Source: a virus
DNA length: 64,000 nt
Virus record (IMG/VR): IMGVR_UViG_2547132402_000007
Coordinates: 16,805 to 80,804 of that record
Strand: one strand, 5' to 3'
A program made the position numbers and the translations under genes. Positions 106-5,670 of this stretch are shown here, in pieces; positions within the stretch are counted from its first letter, which is position 1, and each line of letters starts with the position of its first letter. Below the pieces are notes generated by a model, which searched no databases, was not told the DNA's origin, and saw only the letters and a list, made by a program, of their open reading frames with translations.

Positions 106-120
106 CGCTCCTCTTACGAC

Positions 121-146
121 AAAGGGCCATCAGCTGGTGGCCCTTT
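121..146. terminator. Bidirectional rho-independent terminator
   Basis: AAAGGGCCATCA-GC-TGGTGGCCCTTT hairpin between convergent genes. Confidence 0.7.
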
Positions 147-163
147 GTCTACTTAAAATCCTG

Positions 164-334
164 CTATTTCCCTTTAGAGGGGCCATTCCCCCTCCCCCCA
201 CCAGACGGACTCCCCGTTGTGCTCGGCCAGTTACCGCCGGGGCCAGGATGGCTAGATGGGCCTCGGCCACCAGATGAACCACGCGGTGCAGACCCCCCTG
301 AACCACTACGGGAACCAGAACTACCTTTGCTCAT
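164..334 (-). CDS. Small Gly/Ser/Pro-rich protein (56 aa)
   Basis: GGAGG sits 4 nt before the ATG at 334. Product MSKGSSGSRSGSGG...GPGGNWPSTTGSPSGGGRGNGPSKGK. The longer 164..454 start has no RBS. Confidence 0.5.
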   Translation of the reverse strand: MSKGSSGSRSGSGGSAPRGSSGGRGPSSHPGPGGNWPSTTGSPSGGGRGNGPSKGK

Positions 335-1593: not shown

Positions 1594-2208
1594 ATGAAGC
1601 GATTTCTCATGAGTAAGGTGATGATTATCACCTATGGCATATTTTTTTTATTGGTTATCCCCGGCGTAGCTCTCTTTACCAACGGTGCGACCATAAACAT
1701 GGAAAACCTAGATAGGTTAGGCAGCTACTTATCAGGTATCGGCACTGTCGTGGCCGCCGTAGCTGCCGTATACGGGATTAATGGGTGGGTAAAGCAACTA
1801 ACACATGGGAAATACTTAGATATTATCTGGGAAGCAAAAATAAACCTACGCAAGGTTTATTTATCTAAAAATTCTTGGTATGGCTACGCAAAAATAGCAG
1901 CGACAAAATGCAACTCTAAGCTAGACAATGAGGCGAATGAATATTGGGACAAGCTGGATAGCGCTTGTAAAAGCCTATCCACTAGTTTCAGCTCCATAGA
2001 TCAAATAATAGTACGCGATGATTTCAAATGGCAAAATCAAGCCACTGATCTCCATAGACTTCTCAAGGATACAAATAACTTACTGAAAGAGCTCATAACA
2101 AGCGATGAATCTGAACAGAAACTCCATGAAAAAAACAAACTTTTCCATTGCTATTACAATTCTCTTCTAAATCAATTGGATGAGCTTGAAAAAAAACATT
2201 CAAAGTAG
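1594..2208 (+). CDS. AT-rich accessory membrane protein with two N-terminal TM helices and a helical C-terminus
   Basis: Long ORF with hydrophobic IITYGIFFLLVIPGVALF and YLSGIGTVVAAVAAVYGI segments. Start is uncertain (1459, 1594 or 1609). Confidence 0.7.
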   Translation: MKRFLMSKVMIITYGIFFLLVIPGVALFTNGATINMENLDRLGSYLSGIGTVVAAVAAVYGINGWVKQLTHGKYLDIIWEAKINLRKVYLSKNSWYGYAKIAATKCNSKLDNEANEYWDKLDSACKSLSTSFSSIDQIIVRDDFKWQNQATDLHRLLKDTNNLLKELITSDESEQKLHEKNKLFHCYYNSLLNQLDELEKKHSK

Positions 2209-2229
2209 AGCCACCCGAAGGTGGCCCTA
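2208..2229. terminator. Bidirectional terminator
   Basis: GAGCCACC-CGAA-GGTGGCCC hairpin between convergent ORFs. Confidence 0.65.
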
Positions 2230-2234
2230 CACCA

Positions 2235-2351
2235 CTATTTTTGGATGATGGTTGTATTGATGCTAATGCTATTGCCGCTAATGCTCCAACCTCCAGCTAA
2301 AACAGTACCAACCACTAGCGCCAACGCAAAAACTGCCTGAATTACTCGCAT
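2235..2351 (-). CDS. 38-aa hydrophobic peptide, candidate type I toxin
   Basis: Not in the ORF track. ATG at 2351 with GAGG SD; product MRVIQAVFALALVVGTVLAGGWSISGNSISINTTIIQK. The SD lies inside a hairpin (2353-2373). Confidence 0.65.
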   Translation of the reverse strand: MRVIQAVFALALVVGTVLAGGWSISGNSISINTTIIQK

Positions 2352-2675
2352 ACGCACACCTCATTAGGCTGCGGCATAGTGATTTGATACGCATGAATAT
2401 CAAATCAAAAACACAAAAGCTCTTTCCCATGCCTATTAACGATACGCACCCCTGGACATGCCATTCATTTCCACATGAATGGGGGTTCGGCCTAAAACAC
2501 ATGGTATATACTACATATCAGAACCTGTGGCGCAAAGTTAAATTCATTGATTTGATATAAAAAGCGTATCACTTTCACATCCGCATATAAGCAAACAGAT
2601 GCTTAATAATTAAATCGATTTAACTCTTATTAAGGCTTAACATTCTTAACGATTGAAGTCATGTAGAATTCTCGC

Positions 2676-2796
2676 TCCGAACGTGTTAAGTTGACTTAAC
2701 ACAAAAGCTCTTTCCCATTCTTATGAGAAAGACATTGGAGAGTAGCTTTCCACCTGCTCTCCAATAAAGAAGGCCACCAATCGGTGGCCTTCTTTG
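2676..2796 (+). ncRNA. Candidate structured sRNA (antitoxin), about 120 nt
   Basis: Hairpins at 2683-2702, 2718-2729 and 2733-2765, terminator at 2766-2796, TAGAAT -10 at 2664-2669. Positions 2698-2718 are identical to 2410-2430 and therefore antisense to the peptide mRNA leader. Confidence 0.6.
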
Positions 2797-2819
2797 CATC
2801 CGTCGCTGGTGGGCTACTA

Positions 2820-3634: not shown

Positions 3635-3853
3635 TTATAAGCGCATCGCTAAGAAAATAGAACCCGCCTACCGTATTCGTGACAGGTTGTCACGACAAGA
3701 TAAATATCAATAAGTTGCATCAAATCTGACTCAGATCAACAAAAAAATACTAACGGAAAACGGATTTTGTTTAAATATGGTTTCACTACAGCGATAATCC
3801 CCTGCAATCGGCTGAGATAGAGCCATTTCATGACGACATGGAGCTAATGACTC

Positions 3854-4061: not shown

Positions 4062-4349
4062 ATGGCCTCTATCGCCACAGAAAACAGCGTCTGCTCAGGG
4101 CACGATGGCTTCCCTCCCCGCCCTGCGGTATCTGGCGTAAGTCAGTTCAAAGTCGCAGGAGTCCCCGTACTGGTGGATGGCAGCCCGTTTGCTATGCACG
4201 ACAAACCCAATAACCCGCCACATGGGGGCGTCGCCATTGGCTCTCGTACTCAATTCAAAGTGGCGGGGAAAAGTATCGCTCTGGTCGGCGATCCGGTGAG
4301 TTGTGGATCGGTAATCGCAACCGGGGACGGTAAATTCAACGTCAAGTAG
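4062..4349 (+). CDS. PAAR-domain spike tip protein (T4 gp5.4 / P1 UpfC-like)
   Basis: CSGHDGFPP, HDKPNNPPHGG and ALVGDPVSCGSVI motifs of Zn-binding PAAR proteins. Confidence 0.9.
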   Translation: MASIATENSVCSGHDGFPPRPAVSGVSQFKVAGVPVLVDGSPFAMHDKPNNPPHGGVAIGSRTQFKVAGKSIALVGDPVSCGSVIATGDGKFNVK

Positions 4350-4358
4350 GAGCATCTT

Positions 4359-4526
4359 TTGAACCACAATGCCCACCCATTCCGACTCTACGCCCCCACC
4401 AGTAAGAGCATTGACCCCATGAAAGCCATCCGCGATGCCCGCAGCGCACGCTTGCGAGGTCGCTCACCAGGCTCCGCCGCACCAGCGCCGGCCGCCACAC
4501 ATCAAAACCAACGGAGTAATGAATGA
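4359..4526 (+). CDS. Possible 55-aa basic peptide with TTG start
   Basis: GGAG RBS before TTG at 4359; frame open to TGA overlapping the next ATG (ATGA); fills the intergenic gap exactly. Confidence 0.35.
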   Translation: MNHNAHPFRLYAPTSKSIDPMKAIRDARSARLRGRSPGSAAPAPAATHQNQRSNE

Positions 4527-4891
4527 GCCTATTAGGAAAGCTATTCGGTGGATCTACCGCCACCGGCGTTATTGATTCCCTAGCCAATGCTGGCGATCGC
4601 CTGTTTACCAGCGATGAGGAACGGCTCCAGTGGCAAACTATGATGGAGAAAATTAAGACTCAGCCAATCGCTATGCGAGAAATGGTCAACGTGATCACCG
4701 CATCATCCACCAGTCCATTCGTAGCTGGCGGCCGCTCAGCCATCCAGTACGCTCTCGCTATCATCATCGGATACAACCTGTGTATCCGTGACATGCTGAT
4801 CTTGCTCCTCGATCGACATGGAGTATGCCAGCCGGCATTCGGGATGGAGCAGTTGCTCGGTATTCTGAAGATGTTCTTCGGTGGCATGTAA
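4523..4891 (+). CDS. Holin of the 3TM / GTA_holin_3TM (DUF3154) family
   Basis: DRLFTSDEER and SPFVAGGRSAIQY motifs followed by hydrophobic helices. Confidence 0.75.
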   Translation: MSLLGKLFGGSTATGVIDSLANAGDRLFTSDEERLQWQTMMEKIKTQPIAMREMVNVITASSTSPFVAGGRSAIQYALAIIIGYNLCIRDMLILLLDRHGVCQPAFGMEQLLGILKMFFGGM

Positions 4892-5670
4892 TGCTGGAAA
4901 AACCAGAACACCAGGCGGCGTATGCCGCCTTAAAAGCCGCAGGTGGGCTTGCAACGCCACGGGCGACACATACAGCGAGTAATGTGAGAAAAGCGGCTAG
5001 CGGCCTGCTAGCGACGTTTTCCAGCCTGGTTTGTAGCGATGTGAAATACCCGACCAATAAAATCGGTGACGAGATCGCTTATCTACGCACCGTGCCCGAT
5101 ATGCTTTCCGGCTTCGCGCCAGCCTGCGCTGGCCTACTTGATGTGATCACCGAAACGACGTCGCCTGATCACATGATCACGTTGAAGTTAGGATGGGAGA
5201 TTCACTGCAAGGCTGATCACCTACCGGCCGACACAATAATGCCAGCTATCACAGCTGTCACGGACGACAGCCGCACAGCGGCAGCGCTAGCAGCATTAGA
5301 GTCCATACACACGGACGCTATCAACGGAACGATGAAGCAGATTAACGCCGCACTGAGTATGACCATATCGTCTGGACAGACCAACGCCTCCGCGCCACAG
5401 CTTGTGCCTACACTGCCGGATCACCTCATCTTAGCGCTGCGATCGGAAGTCGCTACGCTGAAACCGCTGATTAGCGCCGCTGCTGCCACCAGGCAGCCAA
5501 TTGACGACCTGCGCGCTGCCGGCCACACCTCACTATCCACCAGCAAGATTGCTTTTCAGAATGCGATTAACGTTACTATCTTGGCGAATGTCAGTGCTGG
5601 CGGCGCCATGCGCGAAGCCGCCCTGGCTGTTATGCCTGAAAACGTCAGAAGTGCTATAATCCCCGATTAA
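4891..5670 (+). CDS. Probable baseplate-associated protein resembling P1 UpfB
   Basis: ATG overlaps the holin TAA (TAATG). HQAAYAALKAAGGLATP and LKLGWEIHCKAD resemble my recollection of P1 UpfB; adjacent to the PAAR gene as in P1. Confidence 0.6.
   Translation: MLEKPEHQAAYAALKAAGGLATPRATHTASNVRKAASGLLATFSSLVCSDVKYPTNKIGDEIAYLRTVPDMLSGFAPACAGLLDVITETTSPDHMITLKLGWEIHCKADHLPADTIMPAITAVTDDSRTAAALAALESIHTDAINGTMKQINAALSMTISSGQTNASAPQLVPTLPDHLILALRSEVATLKPLISAAAATRQPIDDLRAAGHTSLSTSKIAFQNAINVTILANVSAGGAMREAALAVMPENVRSAIIPD

What the first reader, a model, noticed from the sequence alone, without database searches (positions are those of the whole stretch)
2208..2796. Candidate new type I toxin-antitoxin system: 38-aa membrane peptide plus divergent sRNA with 21-nt complementarity
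Seen: unannotated minus-strand peptide 2235..2351 with one TM helix; its GAGG SD is locked in a stem (2353-2373); a leader of about 150 nt with further hairpins (2383-2404, 2461-2482) follows a TTTGCG-17-TAGTAT promoter near 2508-2536. The 21-mer AACACAAAAGCTCTTTCCCAT occurs at 2410-2430 and 2698-2718, so a plus-strand RNA from about 2676 to the terminator at 2796 would pair perfectly with the leader 59-79 nt upstream of the peptide ATG. Sixteen of the 21 nt lie largely between hairpins of that RNA. The target also covers the ATG of an overlapping 50-codon reading frame (2278..2430). Established: tisB/IstR-1, shoB/OhsC and zorO/OrzO have this divergent layout with about 20-nt pairing; hok/sok uses an overlapping leader frame. 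I do not recognise the peptide as any known toxin.
Basis: partly seen in the sequence, partly recalled or inferred. Interest (0 to 1): 0.85.

Follow-up and report, generated by a model that had tools for sequence, protein, structure and literature searches.

The report
Diverged TimP/TimR toxin-antitoxin on phage-plasmid
The small membrane-peptide gene and the facing small RNA are real and look like an RNA-controlled toxin-antitoxin pair, but they are a very diverged, unannotated relative of the known enterobacterial TimP/TimR system on a P1-like phage-plasmid, not a new kind of system.

Summary
The 21-mer occurs exactly twice, at 2410-2430 and 2698-2718, with none expected by chance, and it is the longest exact direct repeat in the window. 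The 38-codon minus-strand frame is under purifying selection: 9 synonymous and 2 conservative changes over five haplotypes. Its leader keeps its helices through G-U/G-C changes. A structured plus-strand RNA ending at the 2766-2796 terminator would pair with the leader.

The "new system" reading does not hold. Earlier notes of this scan reported timP/TimR copies on other E. coli phage-plasmids, on other DNA, and that led me to test it here. The peptide shares the GGWSISxNSI core with plasmid-borne TimP proteins:
- BLASTP gives 47% identity over 32 residues.
- A shuffle test gives p about 5e-5.
- hhalign gives 94% probability.

The mRNA length (296 nt), the position of the target site, the start region and the terminator all line up with ryfA/timP mRNAs. 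A 100-nt RNA starting at about 2698 has TimR's layout.

The locus is nevertheless too diverged for Rfam ryfA or NCBIfam toxic_TimP to detect. There are no RNA or toxicity data, and the promoters score no better than chance.

Verdict: a new, diverged member of a known type I toxin-antitoxin family.

The parts
2208..2227 (-). 3' hairpin with a UUCG loop that ends the peptide mRNA. It is also the left boundary of the cassette.
   Evidence: Predicted pairs are 2227-2220 with 2215-2208. The hairpin is nearly invariant across haplotypes: only the two stem-end bases 2208-2209 vary. Homology to L006 breaks just beyond it. It aligns with the terminators of ryfA mRNAs.
2235..2351 (-). timP-like gene: a 38-aa peptide with a hydrophobic N-terminal half and a polar Ser/Asn/Ile-rich C-terminal half.
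   Evidence: ORF listed. Substitutions are 9 synonymous and 2 conservative (L10V, T16A) over five haplotypes; the other frames fail this test. The peptide is related to plasmid TimP proteins.
2352..2503 (-). Structured 5' leader of about 150 nt. The Shine-Dalgarno GAGG (2362-2359) is held in hairpin 2372-2354, and the AUG is paired with 2448-2442.
   Evidence: RNAalifold and pair counts: six one-sided G-U/G-C/A-U changes keep their pairs and one breaks a pair. Leader length and register match ryfA.
2410..2430 (-). Target site for the small RNA in the leader, 59-79 nt upstream of the ATG. Its UUUUGU (2418-2413) sits in an open hairpin loop.
   Evidence: The site is at the same position as the TimR sites of K-12 (65-83 nt upstream) and pGDT4 (56-83 nt upstream). 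It is invariant in all haplotypes.
2508..2536 (-). Putative promoter of the peptide mRNA (TTTGCG-17-TAGTAT), with a 5' end near 2501-2503.
   Evidence: The match is weak, 6.9 bits, and not above chance. However, 2507-2532 is invariant, and the implied 296-nt mRNA equals the length of ryfA.
2585..2623 (.). Invariant 39-nt block in the otherwise variable divergent-promoter region. It contains the palindrome at 2610-2623. Its role is unknown; it may be a regulator site.
   Evidence: the intergenic region has 12.8% variable sites, this block none. The palindrome is unique in the window.
2684..2692 (+). Candidate extended -10 element (TGtTAAGTT) for the small RNA.
   Evidence: It is the best plus-strand candidate, 9.5 bits, which is between the median and the 90th percentile of chance. 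It would place the 5' end at about 2698, as in TimR, where pairing starts at the 5' end (PMC7667032).
2698..2797 (+). TimR-like antisense RNA of about 100 nt. It has a pairing region at 2698-2718, hairpins at 2709-2732 and 2734-2765, and a terminator at 2766-2796. The 5' end could instead lie near 2676, which would add hairpin 2683-2702.
   Evidence: Fold of -47.7 kcal/mol, z = -9.1, with the same tail, two hairpins and terminator layout as four TimR RNAs. Changes among haplotypes fall in loops or are wobble-compatible on the + strand (2695, 2732); one breaks an outer pair. Net duplex gain is -15 to -19 kcal/mol.

Best explanation
The stretch 2208-2797 is a self-contained cassette holding a very diverged member of the timP/TimR type I toxin-antitoxin family. 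It sits on a P1-like phage-plasmid, next to the ParF/ParG partition genes.

**Proposed mechanism**
1. The minus strand gives an mRNA of about 296 nt. Its roughly 150-nt leader folds so that the Shine-Dalgarno sequence and the AUG are paired, which keeps translation of the 38-aa inner-membrane peptide low.
2. The plus strand gives an RNA of about 100 nt. Its 5' region is perfectly complementary over 21 nt to leader positions 59-79 nt upstream of the ATG.
3. Pairing would start between the RNA's open A-rich 5' stretch and the open U-rich loop of the target hairpin.
4. Pairing blocks translation, and probably also makes an RNase III substrate, as for TimR/timP and OrzO/zorO.
5. If the RNA is lost or falls in amount, the peptide is made and damages the cytoplasmic membrane.

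**Shown and inferred**
- Shown here: the repeat, the coding frame, conservation of the leader structure, peptide similarity to plasmid TimP proteins, and locus geometry identical to timP/TimR.
- Inferred: both transcripts and their ends, toxicity, repression by the RNA, and any role in plasmid addiction or phage defence.
For: - **The repeat is not chance.**. Both copies are invariant across five haplotypes, whereas 9% of non-coding sites vary; P of no variable site in the 42 positions is 0.014.
- **The peptide frame is under selection.** 9 synonymous and 2 non-synonymous changes. The antisense frame shows 3:6 and loses its stop; the overlapping frame shows 1:7.
- **The leader helices are kept.** Six wobble-type changes are compatible only with the minus strand.
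- **Peptide homology to TimP.**
  - Against Yersinia pGDT4 TimP (annotated as TimP in RefSeq; 47.2 bits on NF040796): BLASTP 47% identity over 32 aa, E = 1e-6, shuffle p about 5e-5.
  - Against the Serratia plasmid copy: 10 of 12 identical in GGWSISxNSIS.
  - hhalign: 93.9% probability, E = 1.6e-7.
- **Geometry.** mRNA of 296 nt against 298-304 nt. Target site, SD/ATG, ORF and terminator are in register with four ryfA loci. The distance from target to ATG is conserved, a feature named as family-wide in PMC7667032.
- **RNA layout.** A 100-nt RNA from 2698 has the TimR layout. K-12 timR is 100 nt and pairs from its 5' end.
- **Energetics.** Duplex -33 to -38 kcal/mol; net gain -15 to -19 kcal/mol.
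- **Context.** The cassette has low GC and lies beside the partition genes. No phd/doc module is present in the record.
Against: - Rfam ryfA (RF00126) gives no match, even at E <= 10 with lax filters. Three plasmid copies score 135-235 bits.
- NCBIfam toxic_TimP gives no match.
- There is no detectable similarity to K-12 TimP itself (shuffle p = 0.13).
- Peptide similarity rests mainly on a 12-16 residue core in 38-aa proteins.
- No promoter scores above chance.
- The hairpin array folds equally well on the minus strand. There, hairpin 2732-2709 plus a U-run looks like a terminator.
- No RNA-seq run holds the locus.
- All haplotypes are 94-99% alike, so there is no compensatory change within the pairing region.
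- Toxicity of this peptide is untested.
Confidence: 0.7

Rival explanations
1. An independent, new family of type I toxin-antitoxin with the tisB/istR-1-type layout. On this reading the likeness to TimP is convergent: short hydrophobic peptides with a Ser/Asn-rich tail. This is what the first reader proposed.
For: The curated models ryfA and toxic_TimP do not detect it. There is no similarity to chromosomal TimP. Leader and sRNA sequences are unlike ryfA/TimR (one search shows little nucleotide identity outside the ORF core and the terminator). Only about five near-identical instances are found among billions of sequences.
Against: The shared GGWSISxNSI core has shuffle p about 5e-5 and hhalign probability 94%. 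mRNA length, ORF length, target position and sRNA length and layout are the same. Graded similarity runs through the plasmid copies to chromosomal TimP.
Confidence: 0.12
2. An sRNA-regulated small membrane or secreted peptide that is not a toxin, for example a phage moron used for exclusion, signalling or lysis timing. The RNA would tune its level rather than act as an antitoxin.
For: Native-level TimP in Salmonella lacking timR does not slow growth; only overexpression is toxic (PMC7667032). Residues 19-21 (A-G-G) could serve as a signal-peptidase site, from reading the sequence. A holin-like gene and other phage genes lie nearby.
Against: The closest relatives belong to a family with demonstrated membrane toxicity and sRNA rescue. 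The double lock on the start region and the perfect 21-nt antisense match are typical of toxin control (PMC4147584). The hydrophobic stretch of about 19 residues is long for a cleaved signal peptide.
Confidence: 0.12
3. There is no antisense RNA. On this reading the hairpins at 2683-2796 are stacked transcription terminators and insulators between the 158-aa gene and the peptide gene. The 21-mer is then a DNA-level duplication or a protein operator.
For: The minus strand folds as well as the plus strand. Hairpin 2732-2709 is a perfect 10-bp stem followed by a U-run on the minus strand. The terminator 2766-2796 has a better U-tail on the minus strand (sequence). No plus-strand promoter scores above chance.
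Against: Exact 21-nt identity kept in all haplotypes is more than an operator needs. The repeat sits exactly where TimR sites sit in relatives, and each relative has its own matching pair with a different sequence. Two stem changes (2695, 2732) are wobble-compatible on the plus strand only. No other copy of the 21-mer or of the palindromes exists in the record.
Confidence: 0.06

Closest known systems
timP/TimR (ryfA mRNA with STnc2070/RyfB sRNA) of Salmonella, E. coli and Shigella, and its plasmid and phage-plasmid copies (PMC7667032)
   Same: - Peptide of 38-41 aa with a hydrophobic signal-like N-terminal half.
- ORF starting about 145-150 nt into an mRNA of about 300 nt.
- sRNA of about 100 nt, transcribed divergently upstream, ending in an intrinsic terminator.
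- The sRNA's 5' region is complementary (16-28 nt) to the 5'UTR at a conserved distance, about 56-83 nt before the ATG.
- The peptide core GGWSISxNSI is shared with the Yersinia and Serratia plasmid copies.

   Different: - Not detected by Rfam ryfA or NCBIfam toxic_TimP, and no similarity to chromosomal TimP.
- No Cys residues in the N-terminal half, and the N-terminus is three residues shorter.
- Leader and sRNA sequences are unrelated.
- The sRNA 5' end lies about 197 nt from the mRNA start, against about 60 nt in pGDT4 and about 400 nt in K-12.
- The carrier is a P1-like phage-plasmid.
tisB/istR-1, shoB/ohsC, zorO/orzO and dinQ/agrB of E. coli (PMC4147584, PMC3919570)
   Same: A divergent, non-overlapping antitoxin RNA pairs over 18-21 nt with a long structured 5'UTR, away from the ribosome-binding site. 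A perfect duplex of this kind is expected to be an RNase III substrate.
   Different: There is no sequence relation of peptide or RNAs, and no Rfam hit to IstR, OhsC or OrzO. A standby site or a 5' processing step has not been shown here.
hok/sok with the mok leader frame
   Same: A small membrane peptide with antisense control, placed in a plasmid-maintenance context.
   Different: The RNA does not overlap the toxin gene. There is no match to the Hok family. The overlapping 50-codon frame shows 1 synonymous against 7 non-synonymous changes, has a poor Shine-Dalgarno sequence, and its AUG lies in a conserved helix.

Membership tests
timP/TimR (ryfA) type I toxin-antitoxin | Peptide of about 38-41 aa with a hydrophobic, Sec-signal-like N-terminal half and a polar C-terminal half | tested here: met
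   38 aa; residues 3-21 have a mean hydropathy of 2.18 and the rest is polar. TimP is described this way in PMC7667032.
timP/TimR (ryfA) type I toxin-antitoxin | Peptide matches the curated TimP model (NCBIfam NF040796, cut-off 45 bits) | tested here: not met
   No hit at E <= 10 for the window peptide or for P0001. K-12 TimP scores 86.8 bits, pGDT4 47.2, the Serratia copy 41.5 and the E. coli phage-plasmid copy 23.
timP/TimR (ryfA) type I toxin-antitoxin | Peptide sequence is related to recognised TimP proteins | tested here: met
   Against pGDT4 TimP: 47% identity over 32 aa, E = 1e-6, shuffle p about 5e-5. hhalign: 93.9% probability. Not significant against K-12 TimP.
timP/TimR (ryfA) type I toxin-antitoxin | mRNA matches Rfam ryfA (RF00126, gathering score 80 bits) | tested here: not met
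   No match at E <= 10 even when only 651 nt are searched. The plasmid copies L015-L017 score 135-235 bits.
timP/TimR (ryfA) type I toxin-antitoxin | ORF lies at about +145 to +261 of an mRNA of about 300 nt | tested here: inconclusive
   With the predicted start at 2501-2503 the ORF lies at about +151 to +267 of a 296-nt mRNA and aligns in register with ryfA. The 5' end is predicted only, and the promoter is not above chance.
timP/TimR (ryfA) type I toxin-antitoxin | A sequence complementary to the 5'UTR lies upstream on the opposite strand, followed by an intrinsic terminator, with the interaction site at a conserved distance from the ORF | tested here: met
   The 21-nt perfect complement at 2698-2718 is followed by the terminator at 2766-2796. 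The target lies 59-79 nt before the ATG, against 65-83 nt in K-12 and 56-83 nt in pGDT4.
timP/TimR (ryfA) type I toxin-antitoxin | The peptide is toxic to the membrane when overexpressed, and the sRNA relieves this through base pairing | not testable with these tools
   There are no expression or phenotype data, and no RNA runs hold the locus.
hok/sok (with mok) | Hok-family peptide, cis-overlapping Sok RNA, and a translated overlapping leader frame | tested here: not met
   No Pfam Hok hit. The RNA does not overlap the gene. The leader frame shows 1 synonymous against 7 non-synonymous changes.

The most novel reading that the evidence does not exclude
This would be a separate deep branch of the TimP family in which the leader and the antitoxin RNA have been rewritten beyond recognition while the geometry stayed fixed. 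It would serve as the post-segregational killing (addiction) or anti-phage module of a P1-like phage-plasmid lineage that lacks phd/doc. That would give TimP/TimR a clear biological role, which the chromosomal copies have not revealed.
Probability: 0.3. Interest if true: 0.5.

Novelty: new member of a known kind. Interest (0 to 1): 0.3.

Why it matters
- **Reach of the family.** TimP/TimR-type modules extend well beyond what the curated RNA and protein models detect. They ride on phage-plasmids beside partition genes, where a role in plasmid retention or phage defence can be tested directly.
- **Annotation gap.** The peptide gene is not called in the one NCBI record that carries it, so such modules are being missed systematically.
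- **A natural example of partner co-evolution.** Comparing this copy with ryfA-type copies shows a type I pair changing both partners' sequences completely, while keeping mRNA length, target position and sRNA architecture.

Tried and rejected
**Searches for relatives that found nothing**
- DNA and tblastn searches of the plasmid, phage and E. coli collections.
- Collection scans with the 21-mer and with back-translated peptide patterns. These gave nothing, or only an unrelated tail-protein hit.
- Neighbour proteins gave no useful distant loci.

**Searches that found only near-identical copies**
- The exhaustive protein search found one 95% identical copy.
- The 158-aa neighbour led to two more near-identical haplotypes.

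**No assignment from family or feature searches**
- Pfam, PHROGs, NCBIfam and the ESM Atlas gave no family for the peptide.

**No expression data**
- There are no RNA-seq holders, so expression could not be examined.

**Ideas rejected**
- The antisense 39-codon frame: 3 synonymous, 6 non-synonymous changes, and its stop is lost in L006.
- The mok-like 50-codon frame.
- A longer leader starting near 2580 and using the 12-nt inverted repeat 2547-2558/2397-2408. The fold is not significant, and the 5' partner region is the most variable part of the locus.
- An operator shared with other promoters. The palindromes and repeats are unique to this locus.

**Dead end**
- The host could not be named: the accession is not held, and a literature search on it returned only noise.

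Full report
**Setting**

The window is part of a 92-kb viral record. Its baseplate protein is about 41% identical to P1 BplA. Earlier first-reader notes on the same genome describe P1-type replication and structural genes.

The finding lies between two genes. On one side is a ParA/ParG-type partition pair (509-1405) plus a 249-aa gene of unknown function. On the other is a 158-aa gene of unknown function. The stretch 2208-2800 has 41.5% GC, against 49% for the window as a whole.

**Checking the observation**

The repeat is real and not chance.
- The 21-mer is exact at 2410-2430 and 2698-2718, with none expected by chance.
- No further copy lies within three mismatches anywhere in the record.
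- It extends to 27 nt with two mismatches.
- It is the longest exact direct repeat in the window.

The other features are also present.
- The 38-codon minus-strand frame exists and has one strongly hydrophobic segment.
The GAGG lies in hairpin 2372-2354, and the AUG is paired with 2448-2442.
- The plus-strand stretch 2676-2800 folds far better than shuffles, z = -9.6.

Four points need correcting.
- The minus strand of that stretch folds as well.
- Only 6 nt of the 21-mer are unpaired in a 2676-start RNA, not sixteen.
- Neither proposed promoter beats chance.
- The overlapping 50-codon frame is not conserved as a coding frame.

**Relatives and selection**

The module is rare.
- The plasmid, phage and E. 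coli collections hold nothing similar.
- Scans for the 21-mer and for a back-translated peptide pattern were negative.
- An exhaustive protein search found one 95% identical peptide, on a syntenic Logan contig, L006.
- The 158-aa neighbour led to two more records: L012, and L013 = CP100816.1. In CP100816.1 the peptide gene is not annotated.
- Laying contigs of three runs gave a further haplotype, X1.

Across these copies, which are 94-99% identical, the peptide frame is the one under selection.
- The peptide frame has 9 synonymous and 2 conservative changes.
- The antisense frame has 3 synonymous and 6 non-synonymous changes and loses its stop.
- The overlapping frame has 1 synonymous and 7 non-synonymous changes.

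The non-coding parts also look constrained.
- Six of the seven stem changes in the leader keep the pair through G-U, G-C or A-U states. These states are standard pairs only on the minus strand.
- In the sRNA region, changes fall in loops or closing pairs. Two are wobble-compatible on the plus strand only, and one breaks an outer pair.
- Both copies of the 21-mer are invariant although 9% of non-coding sites vary (P = 0.014).

Because the copies are so similar, there is no compensatory double change in the pairing region.

**The turn: a TimP/TimR relative**

Earlier notes of this scan on other genomes reported unannotated timP/TimR copies on E. coli phage-plasmids. I tested that lead.

The defining paper, PMC7667032, describes the following:
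- a 38-aa inner-membrane toxin, with its ORF at +145 to +261 of the ryfA mRNA;
- a divergent sRNA, TimR, whose 5' region pairs over 18 nt with the 5'UTR;
- conservation across enterobacteria of an upstream opposite-strand complement followed by a terminator;
- conservation of the site's distance from the ORF.

I fetched the K-12 locus, which has timR of 100 nt, ryfA of 304 nt and timP. tblastn with K-12 TimP against the plasmid collection found diverged copies:
- Yersinia pGDT4, annotated as TimP;
- Serratia plasmids;
- a 46-kb E. coli phage-plasmid.

All three match Rfam ryfA at 135-235 bits. Each has its own leader/upstream repeat, with a different sequence in each.

The window's peptide compares with these as follows.
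- It aligns to the pGDT4 protein at 47% identity over 32 residues, E = 1e-6.
- It shares 10 of 12 residues with the Serratia copy in the GGWSISxNSIS core.
- Shuffle tests give p about 5e-5 and 5e-5 to 2.5e-4 for these two. For the E. coli phage-plasmid copy p is 1e-3 to 4e-3. For K-12 TimP the result is not significant.
- Profile-profile comparison gives 93.9% probability.

A DNA alignment of the predicted 296-nt mRNA with four ryfA mRNAs (298-304 nt) puts the target site, the SD/ATG, the ORF and the terminator in register. The target lies 59-79 nt before the ATG here. It lies 65-83 nt before it in K-12 and 56-83 nt in pGDT4.

An RNA running from 2698 to 2797 is 100 nt long. It has an open 5' tail, two hairpins and a terminator, like four TimR RNAs. 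A TGtTAAGTT element at 2684-2692 is the best plus-strand promoter candidate, though still within the chance range. On that reading the palindrome 2683-2702 would be promoter DNA rather than RNA.

**What does not fit membership**

- Rfam ryfA finds nothing here, even at E <= 10 on 651 nt.
- NCBIfam toxic_TimP finds nothing.
- Chromosomal TimP is not detectably similar.

The locus is therefore best described as a deep, so far unmodelled branch of the family. It is linked through the plasmid copies and through identical geometry. Convergence is not excluded, but it seems unlikely given the shared core motif and the register of all the parts.

**Mechanism**

By analogy with TimR/timP (inhibition of translation, shown in vitro) and with the divergent E. 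coli systems (PMC4147584; PMC3919570), the RNA would pair with the leader.
- The duplex energy is -33 to -38 kcal/mol, and the net gain is -15 to -19 kcal/mol.
- Pairing would begin between the RNA's open A-rich stretch and the open UUUUGU loop.
- The 5' end of the target (AUGG) is part of a conserved helix, 2433-2427 with 2379-2373. Pairing would therefore also remodel the multi-branch fold that holds the start region.

Which effect dominates is not known. It could be a translation block, RNase III cleavage or refolding.

The position beside parFG, the low GC and the sharp cassette boundaries at the two terminators fit a mobile maintenance or defence moron. So does the absence of phd/doc in the 80%-complete record. 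All of this is circumstantial.

**Verdict**

This is a new, strongly diverged member of the known timP/TimR type I toxin-antitoxin family. The scan has met the family on other phage-plasmids before; here it sits on a P1-like element. Expression and toxicity remain to be shown.

Noticed in passing
window 2779-2782: The terminator loop reads AATC in the window and GATT, its reverse complement, in L006, L012 and L013, while the perfect 13-bp stem is unchanged. This looks like an inversion of the hairpin rather than two independent point changes.
   Followed up: no
window 2686-2799 (-): A 37-codon minus-strand frame runs through the sRNA and terminator hairpins. It shows 4 synonymous against 1 non-synonymous change versus L006. 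It has a poor Shine-Dalgarno sequence and runs through the terminator stems, so this is probably chance, but it was not excluded.
   Followed up: partly
window 2397-2408 and 2547-2558; also 2380-2389: A 12-nt perfect inverted repeat (TTGATTTGATAT) links the leader hairpin to a site just upstream of the predicted peptide promoter. It is found only at this locus. It might be a regulator site. A longer leader using it is not supported.
   Followed up: partly
window 2585-2623: A 39-nt block is invariant in all haplotypes within the most variable part of the locus. It contains the perfect palindrome at 2610-2623, which is unique in the window. Its function is unknown.
   Followed up: no
window 2208 and 2799: Homology breaks lie exactly at the two terminators. 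L006 has an 11-nt insertion and a different neighbour gene left of 2208. Run X3 joins the 158-aa gene to unrelated DNA at 2799. The module behaves as an insertable cassette.
   Followed up: partly
L013 (CP100816.1, 88 kb) 4949-5065: The 38-aa gene is not called in the NCBI record that carries an identical module, although it is called on the Logan contigs.
   Followed up: no
L014 (E. coli K-12) 3683-3777: Between timR and ryfA, K-12 carries a second, degenerate timR-like copy. It has an 84% identical terminator part and a 74% identical pairing part, together with a duplicated promoter region.
   Followed up: no
L017 (E. coli 46-kb plasmid CP055628.1) 807-1006 and 1354-1651: This phage-plasmid carries a ryfA-type timP (135 bits) directly beside C4 and IsrK antisense RNAs and a ParA gene. 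This matches what earlier notes of the scan reported.
   Followed up: partly
window 116-247 (-): A weak sub-threshold Rfam match to sraL (23.8 bits, E = 0.046) lies upstream of the ParA-like gene.
   Followed up: no
window 4062-4891: A PAAR-motif protein (phrog_281) and a holin-like protein (phrog_3427) lie about 2 kb from the module.
   Followed up: no
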